The notes: generated by a model from the letters alone, not told the origin. Shown: positions 7,345 through 18,761, counted from the stretch's first letter. The stretch is DNA of 64,000 nucleotides from Gemmatimonas sp. (GCA_050260515.1 JBLNCI010000040.1:48331-112330), one strand, 5' to 3'. A program made the numbers and translations.

Positions 7345-7887
7345 CTAGTGGAGCTGCTTCGGCAGATTCTTGAGCGCCTCGTCGATCAGCGCGCCGGCGC
7401 GATCCTGCGACAGGCCGTCGGCGATCAGCTTGCGGGTGGCGGCGAGCGCCACCTCGACCGCCGCGTCGCGGACGTCCTTGGTCGCGCGCGCCTCGGCCTG
7501 GGCGATCTTCTCCATGGCGAGCTCCTCGCGGCGCTTCAGCGTCTGAGCGAGCTCCTTCTCGGCGTTCTCGCGCATCCGCTTGGCTTCGGCCTCGGCGTTG
7601 GCGACGATCTCGGAGGCCTCGCGCCCGGCGGCGGCGAGCTTGTGCTTGTAGCTCTCGAGCGCCGTGCGGGTCTCCTCGTAGAGCTTCTGGGCTTCGTCGA
7701 TGTTGCGCGCGATCTCGGCGGCGCGGGTGTCGAGCGCGCCGGTGACGGCGCGGGCGACCGGACGCGAGATCGCAACGATGAAGATCAGGAACGCGACGCC
7801 GAGCCAGAACTCGGGCGACTGGTAGAACGCTTCCTCGCCGTGGCCGGCGGCCTCGGCGGCAACGGCGGTGGAAATGAGGCCGAACAT
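7345..7887 (-). CDS. atpF: F0F1 ATP synthase subunit b
   Basis: 180 aa with an N-terminal TM helix followed by a long charged coiled coil, as expected for subunit b. It is last in the atpI-B-E-b'-b order. Confidence 0.88.
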   Translation of the reverse strand: MFGLISTAVAAEAAGHGEEAFYQSPEFWLGVAFLIFIVAISRPVARAVTGALDTRAAEIARNIDEAQKLYEETRTALESYKHKLAAAGREASEIVANAEAEAKRMRENAEKELAQTLKRREELAMEKIAQAEARATKDVRDAAVEVALAATRKLIADGLSQDRAGALIDEALKNLPKQLH

Positions 7888-8379
7888 CTAGCGCTTCTCC
7901 CCGCGGGCGGCGGCGACGGCGGCCGCCGCGGCGCCGGCGTCGACCGGCGCGCCGAGCAGCTTCTCGGCGGCGGCCTTGGCAATGTCCGCCGCGGCCTGAT
8001 TGATGCCCGTCAGCGCCTGGGCCTTGGCCCGCTCGACGGTCTGCTCGGCGTCGCGGCTCTTCGCCGCGAGCGCCTGACCCTGGGCTTCCATCCGGGCGTT
8101 CGCCTCGACCTTGGCCTTCTCCACCGCCTGGGTGACCTGGCTGTGGGCCTTGGCGCGGGCCTCGGCGATCGCCTTGTCGTAGCTGTCGCGGGCTGCCTCG
8201 GCCTCGGCCCGCAGCGCCTGGGCGGCGGCGAGGGTGCCCTCGGTCCGCGCCTTGCGCTCCTTCAGCACGGCGCGGATGCGCGGCAGAACGAACGCCGTCA
8301 TCAGCACGTAGAGGCCGATGAAGGTGATGGCGAGCCACACCAACTGCGGGAGGAAGGTCGAGACGTCGAGTTGCGGCAT
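7888..8379 (-). CDS. atpF2: F0F1 ATP synthase subunit b' (alphaproteobacterial second b subunit)
   Basis: 163 aa. MPQLDVSTFLPQLVWLAITFIGLYVLM gives a TM helix followed by a coiled coil. It directly abuts atpF. Confidence 0.85.
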   Translation of the reverse strand: MPQLDVSTFLPQLVWLAITFIGLYVLMTAFVLPRIRAVLKERKARTEGTLAAAQALRAEAEAARDSYDKAIAEARAKAHSQVTQAVEKAKVEANARMEAQGQALAAKSRDAEQTVERAKAQALTGINQAAADIAKAAAEKLLGAPVDAGAAAAAVAAARGEKR

Positions 8380-8436
8380 CTACATGATCCTAGGGACACC
8401 TAAGCCTGTGGGGGGCCGAAGCCCCCCGCGCGGCGA

Positions 8437-8661
8437 TTAGGAGAACAGGATGAGGAACGAGATCAGCAGGGCGTAGAGCGCGACCGCCTCGACGAGCGCG
8501 AAGCCCAGCATCGTGTACGGGAACACCACCGGACGGGCCGCCGGGTTGCGGGCGACCGACGAGATGAACGAGGCAAACACGTTGCCGATACCGACGCCGA
8601 CACCGGCGAGACCGATGACGGCGAGACCGGCGCCAATGAGCTTAGCGGCAGCAGCATCCAT
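8437..8661 (-). CDS. atpE: F0F1 ATP synthase subunit c (proteolipid)
   Basis: 74 aa hairpin proteolipid [18 protein letters not shown]...[18 protein letters not shown] with the conserved acidic residue. Confidence 0.92.
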
Positions 8662-8712
8662 GACTTTTATCCTTAGCTTTGGTGGTGGTTGGGTGGTTGG
8701 AGGGAGCGCCGA

Positions 8713-9468
8713 TCAGTGCAGATGCAGCGCGTCGTGGAGGTAGAGGCAGGTGAGGATCGCGAACACGTAGGCCTGCAGCAGCGCGACCAGCAGCTCGAGC
8801 ACGTAGAGCGCGACGATGACCGCGAGCGGCGCGATGCCGAACACGCCGAGCAGGATCACGAAGCCCGCGAACACGTGCAGCATCGTGTGGCCCGCCATCA
8901 TGTTGGCGAACAGTCGCAGCGCCAGGGTCACCGGGCGCGCGAGGTAGGAGATGACCTCGATCGGCACCAGCAGCGGCGCCATGTAGAGCGGCGTGTCCGG
9001 GGGCAGGAAGTAGCTGAAGAACTTGACGCCGTGCTTGGCCAGCGCGACCAGCGTCACACCGAGGAAGACGACGGCGGCCAGCGCGAACGTCACGACGATG
9101 TGGCTGGTGACCGCGAACGCGCCCGGGACGAGGCCGATCAGGTTCGCGAACAGGATGAACATGAACAGCGTGAACACGAACGGGAAGAACGGCCGTGCGT
9201 CGTGCCCCGCGTTGTCGCGAATCATGCCCGAGACGAATTCGTAGAGGATCTCCGACATCGACTGCCAGCGGCCGGGAACCAGCGCCGCCTTGCGCATGCC
9301 GAGGACGAGGAACGCGGTCACGCCGAGGACGGCGACCGCCATGTAGAGGGAGGAGTTGGTGAAGGAGGCGTTCACCCCGCCGACCTGGATCGGAGCGAGG
9401 GTGTGGATCTCGAATTGCTCAAGCGGCGACGCCACGCGCGTTCCCCCTAAGGGTCTGTCGTTTCGCAC
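8713..9468 (-). CDS. atpB: F0F1 ATP synthase subunit a
   Basis: 251 aa polytopic protein. Contains LRLFANMMAGH, the conserved Arg-containing helix of subunit a. Confidence 0.9.
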   Translation of the reverse strand: MRNDRPLGGTRVASPLEQFEIHTLAPIQVGGVNASFTNSSLYMAVAVLGVTAFLVLGMRKAALVPGRWQSMSEILYEFVSGMIRDNAGHDARPFFPFVFTLFMFILFANLIGLVPGAFAVTSHIVVTFALAAVVFLGVTLVALAKHGVKFFSYFLPPDTPLYMAPLLVPIEVISYLARPVTLALRLFANMMAGHTMLHVFAGFVILLGVFGIAPLAVIVALYVLELLVALLQAYVFAILTCLYLHDALHLH

Positions 9469-9471
9469 GGC

Positions 9472-9825
9472 CTAGCGGCCGTCCGTCTCCTCGTCCTTCT
9501 CGACGACCGGGCGATAGCCGGGGCCCGCGCCGATCCCCGACACCGCGCGCCAGACGTTGAGAACGCCGGCGGCCGCGCCGAGGAAGAAGAACACCACCAT
9601 CAGCCACGGCTTGGTGCCGAGCCAGCGATCGAGGAACCACCCGATGCCGACACCGACCGCCAGAGCCGAGACCAGCTCGATACCGACGCGGAACGCGAGG
9701 CCAAGACCGCTCATCGGCTGCCCGCCGCTCCTCTTGCCGCCGCCGGTCCGGGAATCGACCCGGTCCTGAGCGGCCCGCAAGCGGGCGTCGAGGTCCTCCA
9801 GGGAGGGCGGTTTGCGCTCGTCCAT
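9472..9825 (-). CDS. atpI: ATP synthase protein I (AtpI)
   Basis: 117 aa small membrane protein with two TM helices. It is the first gene of the atp F0 operon. Confidence 0.7.
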   Translation of the reverse strand: MDERKPPSLEDLDARLRAAQDRVDSRTGGGKRSGGQPMSGLGLAFRVGIELVSALAVGVGIGWFLDRWLGTKPWLMVVFFFLGAAAGVLNVWRAVSGIGAGPGYRPVVEKDEETDGR

Positions 9826-10024
9826 GGGAAGGGTTACGCCGTAAGCGCGTGGCCGGAAGGGCCGCGCCGGAAAGCGCGCGCACCTTATAAAGCGGCCCCC
9901 CGGGTGTCAAGGCCGAACGGCGCCTGTGAGGGCGCCGAGAACGCCGGAAAATCAGGGGTTTCCGTGCTCCGCATCGGGCAGCGAAGCGGTCCCGCTTTGG
10001 GTAGGTTCACCGATCGCGAATCAT

Positions 10025-10056
10025 GAAAAAACCCCGGGGGCGCGCCCCCGGGGTTT
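10025..10056 (-). terminator. Rho-independent terminator downstream of smc
   Basis: On the minus strand the sequence reads GAAACCCCGGGGGCGCGCCCCCGGGG followed by TTTTTTCATGA. It lies immediately 3' of the smc stop. Confidence 0.75.
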
Positions 10057-10080
10057 CTCGGCTCGTCGGTGGCGCCCGCC

Positions 10081-13000
10081 TTACGCGATCGCGCGCAGCC
10101 GGGTCACGCCCTGGAGGTCGACCGACACCAACTGCGACACGCCGCGCTCCGGCATGGTGACGCCGTAGAGGCGGTCCATGCGGGCCATCGTGATGCGGTG
10201 GTGGGTGACGATCAGGAAGCGGGTCTTGGTGATGTTGCCGATCTCCTCGATCAGGTTGCAGAAGCGACCGATGTTGGAGTCGTCGAGCGGAGCGTCCACC
10301 TCGTCCAGCACGCAGATCGGCGCCGGGTTGGTGAGGAACACGGCGAACAGCAGCGCCGTCGTGGTCAGGGCCTTCTCGCCGCCCGAAAGCAGCGACAGGA
10401 CCTGCAGCTTCTTGCCCGGCGGGCTCGCCATGATCTCGAGCCCGGCCTCGAGCGGATCCTCGGCTTCCGTGAGTTCGAGATGCGCGCGCCCGCCGCCGAA
10501 CAGCCGCGTGAACAGGGTCTGGAAGTGGCCGTTCACCTTCTCGAACGCGGCGAGGAAGCGCTCGCGGCCCTCGCGATTGAGCTCGTTGATGCCGTGGCGC
10601 AGACGGGCGATCGCGGCGACGAGATCGTCGCGCTCCGTCGTCATGCCGGCGATCTGCTCGTTGAGCTCCTTGGCCTCCTCCTCGGCGCGCAGGTTCACCG
10701 GGCCCATGTTGTCGCGCTCGCGGGTCAGGCGATTGAGCCGCGCCTCGGCCTCGGGCAGCGCCTCGATCTCCTCCTCGGTCTTTTCGGCGACCGCCAGCAG
10801 CTCGGTCGGCAGGCACGCGACGCGCTCGGCGACACGTTCCTCGACCTGCGCCAGGGTCTGCGTCGCCTGGGCGACGACGCCCTCGGTGCGGACGCGATCC
10901 TCGCGCACGTCGCGCAGCTCGCCGTCCACCTTCTTCAGAGCGGCGGCGGCCTCGTTCAGCGTCGCCTCGGCGGTGGCGAGCGCATCGGCGCGGGCCTGAC
11001 GCTCGCGCGCGGCCTCGTCGATGCGATCACCCAGCGCATGGCGCTCGGTCATGATCTCGGCGGGACGCGCGGCGAGGCGGGCGCGCTCTTCCTCGGCCGA
11101 GGCGCGGCGGGATTCGAGCTCGTCGATCTGCGACTGGGCGTGGCTCTCGCGCTCCTGCCAACCGCTGCGCTCGGTGCCGATGTCGGCGATGCGCTGACGG
11201 CGGGCCGCCGCCTGGCGCAGCACCTCGTCGTGGGCGCGGGCAGCTTCCGCCTCGATGCCGTGGCGGCTCGACAGTTCCTCGCGGGCGCGCTCGGAGTCCT
11301 CGCGGCGGGCGGCGAGCGAGGACTCGTCGTCGGGGCCGGGCTGCGCGGCCTCGGCGGCGGCGACCGCCTCGTCGCGGTCGCCGGTGAGCTGAGCGATCAG
11401 CTCGCGGACGGTCTCGAGCTTGGTCGCGAGCTGCGCGGCCTTCTGCGCCACGTCGGCGTGGGTCTCGCGGGCGGAGCGCTCGTCGGCGTCGGCGCGGCGC
11501 ACCGCGTCCCGCGCGGAGCTGGTCGCGGCGTCGGCCGCCTGCTGGCGCTCGCGGGCCGCGACGCGCACCGCATTGACGGTATCGGTCGCCGCCTGCTGAC
11601 GCTGACGGACCTCGGCGCGCACCGCGTTCATCGCATCGTCGGCGGCCTGCTCGCGTTCGCGCGCGGCGAGACGAACCGCGTTCACGACCTCGTCGGCGGC
11701 CTGCTCGCGTTCGCGCGCGGCGAGACGAACCGCGTTGACGGCGTCGACCGCTTCCTGCTGGCGCTGACGCACGTCGGCGCGCACGGCGTTGACGGATTCG
11801 AGCGCCGCCTGCTGCTCTTCGCGGGCAGCCTCGCGCGCCGCGTTGACCGCGTCGGTGGCGGCCTGCTGACGTTCGCGTGCGGCTTCGCGCGCGGCACGCT
11901 CGGCCTCGGCGGCGGCCTGCTGACGCTCGCGCGCGGCCTCGACCGCGGCGCGCATCTCGGCCGAGTTGGCTTCCGCCGCCGCGATCAGCGGCGCGAGCTC
12001 GGCGAGACGGTTGCGCTGGCCGAGGCGCACGGCGGCGGCGGTCTGCGCGCCCGCGCTGACCGTGTAGCCGTCCCAGCGCCACAGCGCGCCGTCGCGCGAC
12101 ACCAGGCGCTGGCCGAGCTGGAGCTGCGGAGCGAGGGCCACGCCCTCGGCGGCGGTCTCGACGACGCCGATCTGCGACAGCCGGCGCGCGAGCGCCATCG
12201 GCGCGTGGGCGAAATCCGACAGCGGGCGGACGTCCCCGGGCAGCGGCGCCGACGCGTCGAACGGCGGCAGCGTGCGCCAGTGGATCGGCGCGGCCTCGTT
12301 GACCGGCGCGATCAGGTCGTCGCCCAGCGCGACGCCGAGCGCGGTCTCGTAGCCGGGCGTGACGCTGACATGGTCGATCAGCGGCTCGTAGCCCTCGCCC
12401 TCGCTGTGGGCGAGGAGGTTGCGCAGCGCCGAATCCTCGGCGGTGAACTTGGCCAGCATCGCGTCGGTGGCCTGCGCCTCCTCGGCGCGACGGCGGGCTT
12501 CGGCATCGACACGCTCGCGATCGGACTCGGCGGCGGCGATCTGCTGGCGCACGGCTTCGGCGACGCGCTGCGCGTCGGCCTCGGCCGCCGCGATCCGCTC
12601 GCGCGCCGTCTCGGCGACGCGCTGGGCGTCGGCCTCGGCCGCCGCGATCTTCTGGGTCTCGGCCTCGGCGAATCGCTGTGCGTCGGCTTCGGCCGCGGCG
12701 ATCTTCTGGGTTTCGGCCTCGGCCACCTGCTGCGCGTCGGCTTCGGCCGCGGCGATCGCGCGCGCCTGCTCCTCGGCGACACGCTGCGCCTCGGCCTCGG
12801 CGGCGGCAAGCTGCTCGCGGCCCGCCTCGGCGATGCGCTGCGCTTCGGCCTCGGCGGCAGCGAGCTCTTCGCGCGACGCTTCGGCGATCCGTTGCGCCTC
12901 GGCCTCGGCGGCGGCAAGCTCCGCGCGCGCCGCTTCCGCCTGCTGCCGGGCGTCGGCGAGCCGCGCCTCGGCGGCCTCGATCTCGGCGCGGTCGGCGACG

Positions 13001-14295
13001 GCGATCTCGAGCCGTTCGGCCTCGGCCTCGGCGTCGCGCAGGCGCTCGTTCAGGCGCTCGGCGCGGGCCTCGGCCTCGGCGCGACGACGGGCGAGCTCGG
13101 CGAGGCGCGCTTCGGCCGCGGCCACCTCGGCGGTGAGCCGGGCAAGGGTTTCCTCGGCCGCGACGCGCTCGGCGGTCGCCTGGTCGAGGGCGCGGCGCGC
13201 CGCGTCCTCCGCCTCGTCCTCGGCGAGCTGCTCAGAGGCGATGCGCTCGGCTTCCTCATCGAGGCGGGCGATGGCGGACGCCGCGTCTTCGGCGCGGATG
13301 CGCTCGCGCTCGGTATCGCCGGCGATCTGCGCCAGACGTTGGCTGAGCTGCGCCTCGGCGGCGCGGACGCGCTCTTCCTCGCGGTCGAGTTCCTCGCTCG
13401 CGAGCTTCAGGCGCTGCAGCCTGGCGGCCGCCTCGGCCTCGGCTTCGCGGAGCGGCGGCAGCGCGGCGGCGGCTTCGGCCTCGCGCGTCGTCGCCGACGC
13501 GACCTCGGTGGTGAGGCGCGCGACCTCGGCCTCGAGCGCCGTCAGGCGCTCGGTCGAGTCGCGGAGCTGCGCGACCGCCGCGGTGTAGCGGTGATGCAGG
13601 ACCTGCGCCTCGGCACGGCGGATGTGGTCGGAGAGGTTGCGGTAGCGCGACGCCTGGCGGGCCTGCTTCTTGAGCGTCTGGAGCTGGGCTTCGAGGGTGC
13701 GGATCACGTCCTCGAGGCGGGTGAGGTTGGCCTCGGCGGCCTTCAACCTGAGCTCCGCCTCGTGACGGCGCGAGTAGAGGCCGGTGATGCCCGCGGCCTC
13801 CTCGAGGATGGCGCGGCGCTCCGACGGCTTCGCCGCGATCAGCGCGCCGATCTGGCCCTGGCTGACGATGGCGGTCGAGCGTGCGCCGGTCGCGGCGTCG
13901 GCGAACAGCGTCTGGACGTCGCGCAGCCGCGACTCGGCGCCGTTGACCTTGTAGGCGGTGCCGGAGCCGCGCTCGATCCGGCGGATGATCTCGATCTCGT
14001 CCTGGTCGTTGAACTGCGCCGGCGCCTTGCGATCGTTGTTGTCCATAACGATGCCGACTTCGGCGATGTTGCGCGGCGGCCGGTTCTGCGTGCCGGCGAA
14101 GATGATGTCGTCCATCTCCGCGCCGCGGAGCTGACGCGCCGAGTGTTCGCCCATCGCCCAGCGCAGCGCGTCGATCAGGTTGGACTTGCCGCAGCCGTTG
14201 GGACCGACGATCCCGGTGAGGCCCGGTTCGATGATGAGCTCGGTGGTGTCGACGAAGGACTTGAAGCCGGAAAGTCGAAGCTTGGAGAACTGCAC
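10081..14295 (-). CDS. smc: Chromosome segregation protein SMC with in-frame tandem-repeat expansions in both coiled-coil arms
   Basis: 1404 aa. The N-terminal head is MQFSKLRLSGFKSFVD...GPNGCGKSNL (Walker A). The hinge is GVALAPQLQLGQRLVSRDGALWRWDGY. The C-terminal head carries LSGGEKALT...CVLDEVDAPLD. A single uninterrupted ORF spans all of it. Confidence 0.95.
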   Translation of the reverse strand: MQFSKLRLSGFKSFVDTTELIIEPGLTGIVGPNGCGKSNLIDALRWAMGEHSARQLRGAEMDDIIFAGTQNRPPRNIAEVGIVMDNNDRKAPAQFNDQDEIEIIRRIERGSGTAYKVNGAESRLRDVQTLFADAATGARSTAIVSQGQIGALIAAKPSERRAILEEAAGITGLYSRRHEAELRLKAAEANLTRLEDVIRTLEAQLQTLKKQARQASRYRNLSDHIRRAEAQVLHHRYTAAVAQLRDSTERLTALEAEVARLTTEVASATTREAEAAAALPPLREAEAEAAARLQRLKLASEELDREEERVRAAEAQLSQRLAQIAGDTERERIRAEDAASAIARLDEEAERIASEQLAEDEAEDAARRALDQATAERVAAEETLARLTAEVAAAEARLAELARRRAEAEARAERLNERLRDAEAEAERLEIAVADRAEIEAAEARLADARQQAEAARAELAAAEAEAQRIAEASREELAAAEAEAQRIAEAGREQLAAAEAEAQRVAEEQARAIAAAEADAQQVAEAETQKIAAAEADAQRFAEAETQKIAAAEADAQRVAETARERIAAAEADAQRVAEAVRQQIAAAESDRERVDAEARRRAEEAQATDAMLAKFTAEDSALRNLLAHSEGEGYEPLIDHVSVTPGYETALGVALGDDLIAPVNEAAPIHWRTLPPFDASAPLPGDVRPLSDFAHAPMALARRLSQIGVVETAAEGVALAPQLQLGQRLVSRDGALWRWDGYTVSAGAQTAAAVRLGQRNRLAELAPLIAAAEANSAEMRAAVEAARERQQAAAEAERAAREAARERQQAATDAVNAAREAAREEQQAALESVNAVRADVRQRQQEAVDAVNAVRLAAREREQAADEVVNAVRLAAREREQAADDAMNAVRAEVRQRQQAATDTVNAVRVAARERQQAADAATSSARDAVRRADADERSARETHADVAQKAAQLATKLETVRELIAQLTGDRDEAVAAAEAAQPGPDDESSLAARREDSERAREELSSRHGIEAEAARAHDEVLRQAAARRQRIADIGTERSGWQERESHAQSQIDELESRRASAEEERARLAARPAEIMTERHALGDRIDEAARERQARADALATAEATLNEAAAALKKVDGELRDVREDRVRTEGVVAQATQTLAQVEERVAERVACLPTELLAVAEKTEEEIEALPEAEARLNRLTRERDNMGPVNLRAEEEAKELNEQIAGMTTERDDLVAAIARLRHGINELNREGRERFLAAFEKVNGHFQTLFTRLFGGGRAHLELTEAEDPLEAGLEIMASPPGKKLQVLSLLSGGEKALTTTALLFAVFLTNPAPICVLDEVDAPLDDSNIGRFCNLIEEIGNITKTRFLIVTHHRITMARMDRLYGVTMPERGVSQLVSVDLQGVTRLRAIA
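11491..11922 (-). repeat. 8 x 54-bp (18-aa) imperfect tandem repeat inside smc, C-terminal coiled-coil arm
   Basis: Repeat units read QQAATDAVNAAREAAREE / EQAADEVVNAVRLAARER etc. (residues ~792-935). Two units are identical at DNA level (CGTCGGCGGCCTGCTCGCGTTCGCGCGCGGCGAGACGAACCGCGTT). Confidence 0.85.
12484..12915 (-). repeat. 8 x 54-bp (18-aa) imperfect tandem repeat inside smc, N-terminal coiled-coil arm
   Basis: Units AAAEAEAQRIAEASREEL / AAAEADAQRVAETARERI etc. span residues ~461-604. At the DNA level 54-bp periodicity is visible in ...CTCGGCCGCCGCGATCTTCTGGGTCTCGGCCTCGGCGAATCG.... Confidence 0.85.
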
Positions 14296-14300
14296 GTCGG

Positions 14301-14999
14301 TTACCGCGCTGGCGTGGATGAAGAGGTGGACGAGGGCGACACGGCGGCGCCGGAGGCCGCCTCCTCGACGAGCTTGGTGAACTCAGGCGCCTCGTAGGCG
14401 CCGACGACGAGCTGGCCGTTGATCAGGAAGCTCGGCGTGCTCTTGATGTCGTAGGTCTGCTCGGCGTCGGTGCGGCTCTGCACGACGGCATTGAGCGCGT
14501 CCTGGTTCTCGATGCAGGCATTGAACTGCTCCTCGCTCATGCCGGCCTGGGCGACGATCGACTGCAGCGCCGAGCGCGGGTCCTGCGATGCGGCCCACTG
14601 CATCTGGCGCGAAAACAGGAGGTCGATCATCCCGAACGCGCGGTCGTTGCCGACGCAGCGCACCAGCATGGCGGCGCGCAGCGCGAGCCCGTCGAGCGGG
14701 AAGTCGCGGAAGACGAGGCGCGCCTTGCCGGTGTCGATCAGCGTCGACTTAACCTGCGGCAGGACGTCGACGGCGAAATGGGCGCAGTGCGGGCAGGTCA
14801 TCGAGGCGTACTCGATGATCGTGACCGGCGCGTCGGCGCTGCCCATCACCCGGTCGTCGGGCTTGACCTCGAACGGCCGCGGGCCGTCGGAGGCGCTCGC
14901 CCCGGGGGTCGCCTTGGACGCGGGCTGCCACTCGCGGTAGGCGACGAACGCGATCGCCGCGACGGCGAGAACCAGCAATCCTAACAATATCTTCCGCAT
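14301..14999 (-). CDS. DsbA-family thiol:disulfide oxidoreductase (periplasmic)
   Basis: Start at MRKILLGLLVLAVAAIAFVA (signal/TM anchor). It has a thioredoxin-fold CPHC active site (YASMTCPHCAHF). The 5' ORF extension to 15050 is not needed. Confidence 0.8.
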   Translation of the reverse strand: MRKILLGLLVLAVAAIAFVAYREWQPASKATPGASASDGPRPFEVKPDDRVMGSADAPVTIIEYASMTCPHCAHFAVDVLPQVKSTLIDTGKARLVFRDFPLDGLALRAAMLVRCVGNDRAFGMIDLLFSRQMQWAASQDPRSALQSIVAQAGMSEEQFNACIENQDALNAVVQSRTDAEQTYDIKSTPSFLINGQLVVGAYEAPEFTKLVEEAASGAAVSPSSTSSSTPAR

Positions 15000-15080
15000 G
15001 GAACCCTCTGGCCATACTACGTATAGCGCTTGGCGGCCGCTACCGTCCACGATTCCGCAGCCCGCCGCAAGGCTCGAATT

Positions 15081-15617
15081 TCACTTATCCCCAAACGTTT
15101 TCGCACGGTTCGAGGGCGGAGCGGAGCGCGCCGCGGCCGTGGTCTTGAGCGCCTCGGCGAGGCGCTCGAGCGCCGCCCTGACCCCCTCGTCGGCGACGTC
15201 GGCGATGGCCGCGAGGGTCGTGTCGTCGGGGGGCGGCGGGGCGGGGGTGGTGGGGCGCTGCTGCGGCGGCGACTGCGGCATCGTCCCCGGCAGGATCTTG
15301 AGCTGGGCGACCGCCGGATAGCCGAAGTGCACGTTGACCCGTTCGATGATCTGCGGCGCGAGATGCTGGACCTCGGGACCGAATGCCGGCGCGACGCGCA
15401 CCATCAGCGTCCCGTGGTCCCGGCGGTCGCGCTCGAACGCGAGGCGCTCCGGGGTTGCGATCGACGCGAGATGCGCGCCGACGATGGCGCCCCAGTCGGT
15501 GATGATCGCGCCTTCGGCGAAGCCGCGTTTCTTGAACAGCGGGCGGGCGATTCGCGCGACCGCCGACGCGGCGGTGGCGAGTCCGCGCCGGGCATCCTTG
15601 TCCTTGGGGTCCGCCAT
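15081..15617 (-). CDS. DUF721 (DciA-like) domain protein
   Basis: Start chosen at MADPKDKDARRG. The core FAEGAIITDWGAIVGAHLASIATPERLAFERDRRDHGTLMVRVAPAFGPEVQHLAPQIIERVNVHFGYPAV is DUF721-like. It is divergent from mutY, as in many alphaproteobacteria. Confidence 0.55.
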   Translation of the reverse strand: MADPKDKDARRGLATAASAVARIARPLFKKRGFAEGAIITDWGAIVGAHLASIATPERLAFERDRRDHGTLMVRVAPAFGPEVQHLAPQIIERVNVHFGYPAVAQLKILPGTMPQSPPQQRPTTPAPPPPDDTTLAAIADVADEGVRAALERLAEALKTTAAARSAPPSNRAKTFGDK

Positions 15618-15669
15618 CGTGGGATCGCTTTCCTTTGGGCGCGCTTTTCGCCCCGCGCCGCGAGCCCGC

Positions 15670-18047
<2,378 letters not shown>

Positions 18048-18086
18048 TTATAAATCTACCGGTGGGAGTCGCCGGAGTCGCGGGAC

Positions 18087-18761
18087 TCAAGATGTAGCGG
18101 TAGATGCCACGGTCTGGGCGATGCCCGAGAACAGCGTGACCGCCTCCGCGACCGGTGCGAACGAGCGGCGGTGGTGCACTGTCGGCCCGTGCTTCGACAG
18201 CGCCTCGGCGTGGATTTCGGTGCCGTAGCCCGCGTTGGTGTCCCAGCCGAACGCCGGATAGAACGGCGCGAGGCGCGTCATCAGCCGGTCGCGCGCGACC
18301 TTGGCGACGATCGATGCCGCGGCGATCGACAGCGAGCGGTGGTCGCCGCCGACCACCGCCTTCACCGGGCAGCCGAAATCCGGCGCTCGGTTGCCGTCGA
18401 CGAGGATATGGTCGGGCGCGAACGGCAGGCGCGCAACGGCGCGCTTCATGGCGCACTCGGTCGCGCGCAGGATGTTCATGCGATCGATCTCGGCGACGCT
18501 CGCCGCAGCGAGCGAGAGGACGACGCCCTCGCCCGCCTTCGCGCGGGCGATCAGCTCGGCCGCGACCGCCTCGCGCCTCTTCGCCGTGAGCGCCTTCGAA
18601 TCGTCGATGCGGTCGCGGAGATCCTTCGGCAGCTTGCGGCGCTCGAGCACGCACGCCGCGGCGACGACCGGTCCCGCCCACGGACCCCGGCCCACCTCGT
18701 CGACGCCCGCCACGCGTCCGTCTTTGCCCGCCACGTCGATCTCCAGCCGGAAAGTCGGCAT
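18087..18761 (-). CDS. rnhB: Ribonuclease HII
   Basis: 224 aa. Contains [19 protein letters not shown] (DEVGRG active site), typical RNase HII. Confidence 0.9.

What the first reader, a model, noticed from the sequence alone, without database searches (positions are those of the whole stretch)
10081..14295. SMC with symmetric 8 x 18-residue tandem-repeat insertions in both coiled-coil arms
The smc ORF is 1404 aa, roughly 250 aa longer than typical alphaproteobacterial SMC. The excess is two blocks of eight imperfect 54-bp in-frame repeats. One is in the N-terminal arm (nt 12484-12915, units AAAEAEAQRIAEASREEL). The other is in the C-terminal arm (nt 11491-11922, units like EQAADEVVNAVRLAARER). 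The two arms pair antiparallel in SMC, so equal 144-residue insertions on each side would lengthen the arm by about 20 nm while keeping heads and hinge in register. An 18-residue unit equals 11+7, compatible with a coiled coil. Two C-arm units are identical at the nucleotide level, suggesting recent or ongoing repeat expansion. Such balanced arm-length polymorphism in SMC seems to be rarely described.
Basis: seen in the sequence. Interest (0 to 1): 0.65.

Follow-up and report, generated by a model that had tools for sequence, protein, structure and literature searches.

The report
SMC arms lengthened by matched repeats
The chromosome-folding SMC protein encoded here has both strands of its rod-like arm lengthened by the same number (eight) of 18-residue repeats. 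Relatives carry 2, 3, 7, 8 or 9 repeats, always the same number on both strands, which gives a natural series of arm lengths against which to test a published rule about which SMC arm lengths can work.

Summary
The 1404-aa ORF at 10081-14295 (-) is the chromosomal Smc. It holds two in-frame arrays of eight 54-bp units, in the N strand (aa 461-604) and the C strand (aa 792-935) of the arm, both close to the hinge.

More than 200 relatives are 1152-1154 aa with invariant arm lengths and one unit per strand. Close relatives carry 2+2, 3+3, 8+8 and 9+9 units. An unrelated Ferrovibrio lineage carries 7+7. No unbalanced case was seen.

The two arrays share no DNA similarity, so the balance must come from selection on pairing. 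Both arrays have a hydrophobic period of 3.60 residues (18/5), against 3.50 in the rest of the arm. The AlphaFold confidence profile places them opposite each other.

One detail fails: no two units are identical. The best pair is 85% identical, with a 47-nt exact stretch. The units are old (pS about 0.5) and under purifying selection.

The arm gains about 19 nm and reaches lengths that were non-functional in engineered B. subtilis Smc. My inferred explanation is that 18/5 modules add length with little supercoil twist.

I rate this a new variant of a known kind, of moderate to high interest.

The parts
10081..14295 (-). smc coding sequence, 1404 aa plus stop codon (GTG start; N-terminus VQFSKLRLSGFKSF matches relatives)
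14182..14205 (-). Walker A motif GPNGCGKS (aa 31-38), N-terminal half of the ATPase head
12412..13782 (-). N-terminal strand of the coiled-coil arm (aa ~172-628 in the AlphaFold model)
12484..12915 (-). N-strand array of 8 x 18 aa (aa 461-604). Consensus AAAEA[ED]AQR[VI]AEAxRxx[IL]. Unit 8 is the divergent, ancestral-type unit. Net charge -14.
12040..12411 (-). Hinge dimerisation domain (aa ~629-752; LIDHVSV ... WRWDG)
11491..11922 (-). C-strand array of 8 x 18 aa (aa 792-935). Consensus QQAAxDAVNAVRxAARER. Roughly neutral charge.
11636..11736 (-). Two copies of a 47-nt exact repeat at 54-nt spacing (11690-11736 and 11636-11682) inside C units 4-6. This is the longest exact repeat in either array.
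10822..12039 (-). C-terminal strand of the coiled-coil arm (aa ~753-1158 in the AlphaFold model)
10282..10389 (-). C-terminal half of the head: signature motif LSGGEK (aa 1303-1308) and Walker B / D-loop ICVLDEVDAPLD (aa 1327-1338)

Best explanation
This is the chromosomal Smc subunit of the Smc-ScpAB condensin of an alphaproteobacterium. Its antiparallel coiled-coil arm has been lengthened near the hinge. The lengthening came from tandem duplication of one ancestral 18-residue segment on the N-terminal strand and, separately, of the segment that faces it on the C-terminal strand.

Shown:
- Seven extra units per strand (126 aa, about 19 nm at 0.148 nm per residue) lie 24-39 residues from the hinge.
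- The two arrays are unrelated at the DNA level. Each change in copy number therefore needs two separate mutations.
- In every genome found, the two numbers are equal.
- The units are old, diverged and under purifying selection.

Inferred:
- The arrays pair with each other as one continuous stretch of two-stranded coil. An unmatched unit would leave a bulge or shift the register, and selection removes it or favours a compensating duplication.
- One-sided intermediates could survive for a time, because the hinge-proximal coil is the part of B. subtilis Smc that tolerates one-sided peptide insertions.
- Each unit is a heptad plus a hendecad: five core positions per 18 residues, or 3.60 residues per turn. 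That is close to the 3.63 of an unstrained helix. The added coil would therefore carry about a quarter of the supercoil of heptad coil, roughly 15 degrees per unit against 66 degrees. Length could then change in 2.7-nm steps with little change in the angular relation between head and hinge.
- This would explain how the lineage sits at arm lengths that are non-functional for heptad-type extensions in B. subtilis.

Whether the longer arm is itself adaptive (larger lumen or step size) is not known.
For: Identity as Smc:
- TIGR02168 841.7 bits and SMC_N. Head motifs present.
- Foldseek matches the model to SMC chains and hinge structures.
- The locus RNase HII - CcrM-type methylase - MutY - DciA - DsbA - smc - atpI/B/F/F' (no c-subunit ORF was scanned in the window) matches the relatives, which carry the full atpI/B/E/F/F' operon.

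Balance:
- Walker A to hinge and hinge to signature-motif distances are 491/438-439 aa in most of the 120 closest relatives (98 with both anchors found, 15 more on the C-side distance alone).
- They are 509/456 in two proteins of 1188 aa, 527/474 in the 1224-aa protein and 617/564 here.
- L001 carries 9+9. L128 carries 8+8 with different unit sequences.
- P0361 from a Ferrovibrio MAG has +108/+108, which is 7+7, and sits in a different part of the tree.
- Cluster members have constant length: 5/5, 2/2 and 6/6.

Independence of the arrays:
- No direct or inverted DNA similarity beyond codon-shuffle controls.

Periodicity:
- 3.60 in both arrays, against 3.50-3.52 in the head-proximal arm.
- 3.57-3.62 in the P0361 arrays and 3.65-3.66 in the 88-aa inserts of P0250, against about 3.5 in their flanks.
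- Core positions fall at 3-4-3-4-4 spacing in the unit profiles.
- 18/5 is a recognised periodicity, and 3.63 is the value for an unstrained helix (PMC4786415).

Pairing:
- The AlphaFold model keeps both arrays helical, with pLDDT 74-86 outside a central dip.
- The mirror correlation of pLDDT between the strands peaks at r = 0.91 for x+y about 1390. That places aa 461-604 opposite 786-929, and the C array is 792-935.

Selection:
- pN/pS is 0.33-0.50 among units.

Context from the literature:
- Engineered B. subtilis Smc works only at arm lengths 330-373 and 407-435 aa, with a period of 91 aa.
- Functional one-sided insertions cluster near the hinge (PMC5344682).
Against: - No coordinates or contacts were available, so the pairing rests on a confidence profile and on the counts.
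- With 3.63 residues per turn, seven extra 18/5 units still add about 100 degrees of twist. By coincidence that is the same residual phase as 126 aa of heptad coil (465 = 360 + 105 degrees). Twist neutrality therefore holds only if the real helical period in this coil is nearer 3.60.
- The B. subtilis length rule may simply not apply to Alphaproteobacteria.
- AlphaFold puts a low-confidence kink at the centre of both arrays. It could be an artefact or a real break.
- The N array is strongly acidic and the C array is neutral, so there is no clear charge pairing.
- A test for mirrored duplication history between the arrays was not significant.
- The 8+8 state of this genome rests on a single contig.
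- ScpA and ScpB are not in the window.
Confidence: 0.7

Rival explanations
1. Neutral drift of arm length. The hinge-proximal coil is a permissive zone, the repeats carry no benefit, and only equality of the two strands is under selection. Arm length wanders, and the periodic length rule does not hold in this group.
For: - Copy numbers are scattered (2, 3, 7, 8, 8, 9) with no preferred value.
- The hinge-proximal coil tolerates insertions and truncations in B. subtilis.
- No functional data exist.
Against: - Arm length is invariant in more than 200 relatives, so length is normally constrained.
- All three independent extensions use 3.6-3.67-periodic coil rather than heptads. That points to a geometric constraint on what can be added.
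- Units are under purifying selection.
Confidence: 0.25
2. The arrays do not pair with each other. Each is a separate protrusion, a flexible acidic region or a repeated docking site for a partner, and the equal numbers reflect something other than coiled-coil register.
For: - The N array is very acidic (-14 here, -27 in L128) while the C array is neutral.
- AlphaFold shows a central non-helical stretch in the N array.
Against: - Both arrays are amphipathic with the same 3.60 period.
- They sit at mirror-image distances from the hinge, and the pLDDT mirror correlation aligns them within about 6 residues.
- Equal counts in six expanded species-level lineages are hard to explain without pairing.
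Confidence: 0.05
3. Assembly artefact: repeat units were wrongly expanded or collapsed in a short-read metagenome assembly.
For: - The 8+8 allele of this window is on one contig only.
- The gene contains 54-bp repeats.
Against: - Units are 54-89% identical, and the longest exact repeat is 47 nt. That is shorter than the k-mers used for such assemblies.
- The frame is intact and the strands are balanced.
- Independent assemblies give 8+8 (L128) and 9+9 (L001). The 2+2 and 3+3 alleles recur with identical length in 8 and 5 separately recorded sequences.
Confidence: 0.03
4. A decaying or dispensable smc in which repeat expansion is tolerated because the protein no longer works.
For: smc is dispensable under some conditions in several bacteria (general knowledge, not tested here).
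Against: - All ATPase motifs and the hinge are intact.
- Identity outside the arrays is 79-87% within the clade.
- pN/pS is below 1 in the arrays.
- There are no frameshifts in any of seven genomes.
- The locus is conserved.
Confidence: 0.02

Closest known systems
Canonical bacterial Smc of Smc-ScpAB (TIGR02168 SMC_prok_B; e.g. B. subtilis and Caulobacter Smc, and the 1152-1154-aa alphaproteobacterial orthologues P0005-P0120)
   Same: Head motifs, hinge, antiparallel arm, conserved chromosomal locus; 57-61% identity outside the arrays.
   Different: Seven extra 18-aa units on each strand near the hinge. The arm is about 126 aa (about 19 nm) longer. The added part has period 3.60 instead of 3.50.
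Engineered arm-length variants of B. subtilis Smc (Burmann et al. 2017, PMC5344682; Smc-CC425 in PMC8357415)
   Same: The arm is lengthened by adding matched residues to both strands at the hinge-proximal end.
   Different: - Those variants used ordinary coiled coil from S. pneumoniae. They worked only at 330-373 and 407-435 aa, with a 91-aa period.
- Here the additions are 18, 36, 108, 126 and 144 aa of 18/5 coil. Most of the resulting lengths fall in the gaps of that pattern.
Natural long-armed SMC classes (modes at about 423 and 515 aa in Burmann et al. 2017)
   Same: Naturally longer arms with both strands of similar length.
   Different: - Those were described only as modes of a length distribution. 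No repeat architecture or stepwise series was reported in the text I read.
- The estimated arm lengths here, about 360, 380, 450, 470 and 490 aa, are mostly off those modes.
Ferrovibrionaceae SMC P0250 (1327 aa)
   Same: Balanced hinge-proximal extension (+88/+88) with non-heptad periodicity of 3.65.
   Different: It is built of eight hendecads rather than 18-residue units. Its total lies close to one superhelical period, so it fits the published length rule.
Coiled coils with 18/5 periodicity (heptad plus hendecad; Lupas group reviews, PMC4786415)
   Same: Five core positions per 18 residues, giving near-straight helices.
   Different: Here the periodicity arises from exact tandem duplication on two strands of an intramolecular antiparallel coil, and the copy number varies between species.

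Membership tests
Bacterial Smc (SMC_prok_B, TIGR02168) | Whole-protein HMM score above the curated cutoff | tested here: met
   841.7 bits against a cutoff of 567.35. The match is split into four stretches by the arrays.
Bacterial Smc (SMC_prok_B, TIGR02168) | ABC-type head: Walker A, signature motif, Walker B / D-loop | tested here: met
   GPNGCGKS aa 31-38, LSGGEK aa 1303-1308, ICVLDEVDAPLD aa 1327-1338. Pfam SMC_N spans aa 4-1387.
Bacterial Smc (SMC_prok_B, TIGR02168) | Central hinge dimerisation domain | tested here: met
   Pfam SMC_hinge does not reach threshold in this protein but is recorded in many 58-61% relatives. The hinge sequence aligns column for column with theirs. The AlphaFold model matches the solved SMC hinges 5h69, 4rsj and 1gxj.
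Bacterial Smc (SMC_prok_B, TIGR02168) | Two long helical strands that fold back into an antiparallel arm | tested here: met
   Long helices span aa ~172-628 and ~753-1158. The mirror correlation of pLDDT is r = 0.91. Both come from a model, not from experiment.
Bacterial Smc (SMC_prok_B, TIGR02168) | Partner kleisin ScpA and ScpB in the genome | not testable with these tools
   None among the ORFs of the 64-kb window that were scanned with Pfam. The rest of the genome is not available.
Bacterial Smc (SMC_prok_B, TIGR02168) | Orthologous chromosomal locus | tested here: met
   RNase HII - CcrM-type methylase - MutY - DciA - DsbA - smc - atp F0 operon, in the window and in L005-L007.
Permitted arm-length regimes of Smc (Burmann et al. 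2017) | Arm length within 330-373 or 407-435 aa, or at the natural modes 341 / 423 / 515 aa | tested here: not met
   Unexpanded relatives are about 330-345 aa. Adding 126 aa gives about 456-471 aa here. The estimate of absolute length is rough, but the increment is exact.
18/5 (heptad + hendecad) coiled coil | Hydrophobic periodicity of 3.60 with five core positions per 18 residues | tested here: met
   The Fourier peak is at 3.60 in both arrays and 3.50-3.52 in the flanks. Core positions are 3, 7, 10, 14, 18 (N units) and 4, 8, 11, 15, 18/1 (C units).
18/5 (heptad + hendecad) coiled coil | Near-zero supercoil in three dimensions | not testable with these tools
   Model coordinates are not returned, so Crick parameters could not be measured.

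The most novel reading that the evidence does not exclude
SMC function constrains the superhelical phase between head and hinge, not arm length as such. Nature escapes the roughly 91-residue length quantum by building extensions from near-straight coil: 18/5 or 11/3 modules, duplicated in step on both strands. The arm can then be tuned in 2.7-nm steps. The clade found here (1, 2, 3, 7, 8 and 9 units, plus the 8-hendecad form) would be a ready-made natural test series for that model.
Probability: 0.35. Interest if true: 0.75.

Novelty: new variant of a known kind. Interest (0 to 1): 0.62.

Why it matters
How the 50-nm arm of SMC complexes transmits ATPase-driven changes, and why its length is so conserved, remains an open question in the field. 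The only systematic data are engineered B. subtilis variants.

This finding supplies natural, evolutionarily tested Smc proteins whose arms differ by exact multiples of one 18-residue module on each strand. Most of their lengths are predicted to be non-functional by the engineered series.

If the modules are twist-neutral, this separates length from superhelical phase. It also gives a simple recipe for building SMC arms of any length, which could be used to test how lumen size or step size affects loop extrusion.

It is also a clean example of compensatory co-evolution of copy number between two unlinked repeat arrays within one gene.

Tried and rejected
- Metagenome scan for three AAAEA-starting units at 54-nt spacing.
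- Search with the array-plus-hinge fragment. It returned mostly truncated SMCs. Only P0121 and P0131 were informative.
- A single mutational origin for both arrays, either a direct or an inverted copy. Rejected: there is no DNA similarity beyond shuffles, and the reverse-complement frames give unrelated peptides.
- Mirrored duplication history between the arrays, tested with a Mantel test on unit-identity matrices. The mirrored mapping was not significant (r = 0.08-0.38, p > 0.1). The 'parallel' correlation is driven by the divergent last unit. The most similar unit pairs do face each other in this window (N4-N5 with C4-C5) and in L001 (N4-N5 with C5-C6), but not in L128. This is suggestive only.
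- The three-unit (162-bp) higher-order period reported by TRF. The unit-identity matrices do not support it clearly.
- Charge complementarity between the arrays. Not found: the N array is acidic and the C array is neutral.
- The first fragment alignment, A1 (aa 401-1000), was misaligned at its ends and was not used. A2 (aa 161-1240) was used instead.
- Model coordinates are not exposed, so contacts and supercoil could not be measured.


Full report
THE OBSERVATION

The window has 69% G+C. The ORF at 10081..14295 on the minus strand is 1404 aa. Its GC3 is 0.92, which marks it as the real frame opposite a long antisense ORF. It scores 841.7 bits on the Smc equivalog model TIGR02168, against a cutoff of 567. 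Pfam SMC_N spans aa 4-1387.

Tandem Repeats Finder reports two arrays of period 54. One lies at 12507-12915 (7.6 copies, 79% matches, score 378). The other lies at 11534-11937 (7.5 copies, 73% matches, score 256).
- aa 461-604, units like AAAEADAQRVAEAxRxxI;
- aa 792-935, units like QQAAxDAVNAVRxAARER.

So the coordinates, the unit size, the count and the frame are all correct.

One detail is wrong. No two units are identical in DNA. Unit pairs are 48-89% identical, and the best are N4-N5 at 89%, N6-N7 at 87% and C4-C5 at 85%. The longest exact repeat is 47 nt at 54-nt spacing, inside C units 4-6.

COMPARISON WITH ORTHOLOGUES

A search of the protein collection gave these results:
- the identical protein (NCBI MGE5539906.1);
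- one relative of 1224 aa at 82% identity;
- two relatives of 1188 aa at 77-78%;
- after those, a long run of alphaproteobacterial Smc proteins of 1152-1154 aa at 54-61%.

The length differences from 1152 are 36, 72 and 252 aa. All are multiples of 36, which is one 18-aa unit on each strand.

I measured the two strands separately with motif anchors. The Walker A to hinge distance is 491 aa in the ordinary relatives, then 509, 527 and 617. The hinge to signature-motif distance is 438-439, then 456, 474 and 564. The increments are therefore +18/+18, +36/+36 and +126/+126.

The alignment shows that ordinary relatives have one copy of each unit. The window therefore carries seven extra units per strand, which is 126 aa rather than 144.

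A scan of species-representative genomes found L001, a MAG labelled Alphaproteobacteria bacterium with 83% identity. Its Smc is 1440 aa with 9+9 units. A second protein search led to a 3.9-kb JGI contig, L128. Its gene call was truncated, but its reading frame is open from the contig edge. It carries 8+8 units of clearly different sequence.

All these genes sit in the same locus: RNase HII, a CcrM-type methylase, MutY, DciA, DsbA, smc, then the F0 ATP synthase genes. They are therefore orthologues of the single chromosomal smc.

A SECOND, INDEPENDENT LINEAGE

The exhaustive search of cluster representatives returned P0361, a 1374-aa Smc from a Ferrovibrio sp. MAG. Its anchor distances are 465/442, against 357/334 in ordinary relatives. 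That is +108/+108, or 7+7 units of 18 aa (N unit AVEAEHAQKIEAARAGLN).

Its nearest relatives are ordinary 1152-aa proteins at 60-66% identity. In a neighbour-joining tree built on ungapped columns it sits far from the window's clade. The same kind of balanced expansion, at the homologous site, has therefore arisen at least twice.

A third case in the same neighbourhood is P0250, from Ferrovibrionaceae. It is 1327 aa, with the full 1327-aa length recorded for six cluster members, and occurs on contigs up to 7.4 Mb. It has +88/+88 residues at the same site, built of eleven-residue repeats.

Within the window's clade, L128 is about equally distant from all other members, at 78-82%. Its 8+8 state is therefore probably not inherited together with the window's.

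In total there are six expanded species-level lineages (2, 2/3, 7, 8, 8, 9) and several changes of copy number. Every one is matched on the two strands. I saw no unbalanced protein among about 280 full-length relatives examined. Arm lengths in the rest are essentially invariant.

Members of the 90%-identity clusters all have the length of their representative: 5/5 at 1224 aa, 2/2 and 6/6 at 1188 aa. Copy number therefore differs between species. It does not behave as a hypervariable locus.

WHAT KEEPS THE NUMBERS EQUAL

The N and C arrays have no DNA similarity to each other, direct or inverted, beyond codon-shuffled controls. One mutational event cannot change both. Each step needs one duplication or deletion in each array, and the equality must be maintained by selection.

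The units within an array differ at 44-52% of synonymous sites and 17-25% of non-synonymous sites, giving pN/pS of 0.33-0.50. The arrays are therefore old and constrained at the protein level. They are not recent slippage products. The 47-nt exact stretch is the only sign of a recent event.

These properties, together with the independent assemblies, also rule out an assembly artefact.

STRUCTURE

Both arrays are amphipathic. The unit profiles put the apolar residues at positions 3, 7, 10, 14 and 18 in the N units, and at 4, 8, 11, 15 and 18/1 in the C units. That is 3-4-3-4-4 spacing, or a heptad plus a hendecad.

The Fourier peak of hydrophobicity is at 3.60 residues in both arrays and at 3.50-3.52 in the head-proximal parts of the arm. 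The Ferrovibrio arrays give 3.57-3.62. The P0250 inserts give 3.65-3.66. The flanks of both are near 3.5.

AlphaFold2 was run on aa 161-1240 with a 45-sequence alignment. It gave mean pLDDT 78.6 and a low pTM of 0.35, as expected for a long rod. It shows two long helical strands and an SMC hinge. The arrays are helical, with pLDDT 74-86 apart from a dip at their centres. Foldseek matches the model to SMC, MukB and condensin chains and to solved SMC hinges.

Coordinates are not returned, so I used the confidence profile instead. The pLDDT of the N strand correlates with the reversed pLDDT of the C strand. The peak is sharp, r = 0.91, at x + y of about 1390 in protein numbering. That places aa 461-604 opposite aa 786-929, and the C array is aa 792-935. 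The two arrays therefore face each other to within about six residues in the model. This is model-internal evidence, not an experiment.

RELATION TO WHAT IS KNOWN

Burmann et al. (PMC5344682) reported the following:
- Natural Smc arm lengths are multimodal: 238, 341 and 515 aa, with minor modes at 163 and 423.
- B. subtilis Smc with resized arms works only at 330-373 and 407-435 aa.
- The viability pattern has a 91-aa period, close to the superhelical period of a heptad coil (about 99 aa).
- Functional one-sided 14-aa insertions cluster near the hinge.

A later paper restates that function is restricted to discrete arm lengths (PMC8357415).

Taking about 330-345 aa for the unexpanded arm, the clade described here sits at roughly 360, 380, 450, 470 and 490 aa. 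Most of these values fall in the non-functional gaps and off the natural modes. P0250 falls at about 430 aa, inside the second regime.

The coiled-coil literature gives 3.63 residues per turn for an unstrained helix and lists 18/5 and 11/3 as accessible periodicities (PMC4786415). From those numbers, heptad coil supercoils by about 3.7 degrees per residue. 18/5 coil supercoils by about 0.8 degrees, and 11/3 coil by about 1 degree in the opposite sense.

MECHANISM

My inference is that these lineages lengthen the arm with near-straight coil. Length then changes with little change in the head-hinge phase.

This step is uncertain. At exactly 3.63, seven units still add about 100 degrees. By coincidence that equals the residual phase of 126 aa of heptad coil. 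The argument therefore needs the true period in this coil to be nearer 3.60, or it needs the tolerance to be wide.

The tolerance of the hinge-proximal coil to one-sided insertions offers a route through unbalanced intermediates.

WHAT REMAINS OPEN

- Whether the longer arm (about +19 nm here) is adaptive.
- Whether the central low-confidence kink in both arrays is real.
- Whether copy number varies within populations.
- What the organism is. NCBI labels the MAG Gemmatimonas sp., but every relative and the gene order point to Alphaproteobacteria.

Literature searches found no description of repeat-built, stepwise, balanced natural extensions of SMC arms. The library does not cover subscription journals fully.

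VERDICT

This is a real feature, correctly read by the first stage apart from the 'identical units / ongoing expansion' detail. It is a new variant of a known kind: Smc with a modular, copy-number-variable arm extension. It has clear value as a natural test of the arm-length rule.

Noticed in passing
window 7345-18761 (and the whole contig): NCBI names the source MAG 'Gemmatimonas sp.' (protein MGE5539906.1). All close Smc relatives that carry a taxon name are named Alphaproteobacteria (most are unnamed). The gene order is the alphaproteobacterial one seen in the relatives: RNase HII - CcrM-type methylase with RAMA domain - MutY - DciA - DsbA - smc - atpI/B/F/F'. The label looks like a binning or classification error.
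   Followed up: partly
P0250 (1327 aa; Ferrovibrionaceae; aa 457-544 and 767-854): Another alphaproteobacterial Smc has a balanced +88/+88 extension at the same hinge-proximal site. It is built of about eight 11-residue repeats with hydrophobic period 3.65. The full 1327-aa length recurs in six cluster members, one on a 7.4-Mb contig.
   Followed up: partly
P0195 (821-aa partial Smc), C strand after WRWDG: The C-strand distance is about 86 aa longer than normal and seems to contain an internal duplication of about 87 aa (AESRL.A.EPQLARLAA appears twice). That is about one superhelical period. The N strand is not available.
   Followed up: no
window 12691-12732 (aa 522-535) and 11686-11745 (aa 851-870): AlphaFold places a 14-residue non-helical stretch at the centre of the N array and a pLDDT dip (51-53) at the centre of the C array, opposite each other. 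It could be a modelling artefact of a very long rod, or a real break or elbow in the extended arm.
   Followed up: no
window 12484-12537 and 11491-11544 (unit 8 of each array): In both arrays the 3'-most unit is by far the most divergent, and in the N strand it is the one that aligns with the single unit of unexpanded relatives. New units therefore seem to have been added on the 5' side of the ancestral unit in both strands, although these ends are structurally opposite (hinge-proximal in N, head-proximal in C).
   Followed up: partly
window 12484-12915 versus 11491-11922: The N array is strongly acidic (net -14 here, -22 in L001, -27 in L128), whereas the C array is about neutral. The extension therefore adds a negatively charged stretch to the arm near the hinge.
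   Followed up: no
L128:1-3396 (JGI Ga0395898_0054382): The database protein P0121 (725 aa) starts at an internal Met. The smc frame is in fact open from the contig edge and includes the hinge and an eight-unit N array, so the deposited gene call is truncated.
   Followed up: yes
P0421 (1222 aa): A more distant Smc has roughly +36/+33 residues in the two strands without recognisable repeats. It may be an old, diverged two-unit extension.
   Followed up: no
window 10069-14397 (+): A 1442-aa ORF lies antisense to smc. The minus-strand frame has GC3 of 0.92 and all the homology, so the antisense ORF is most likely a by-product of high G+C.
   Followed up: partly
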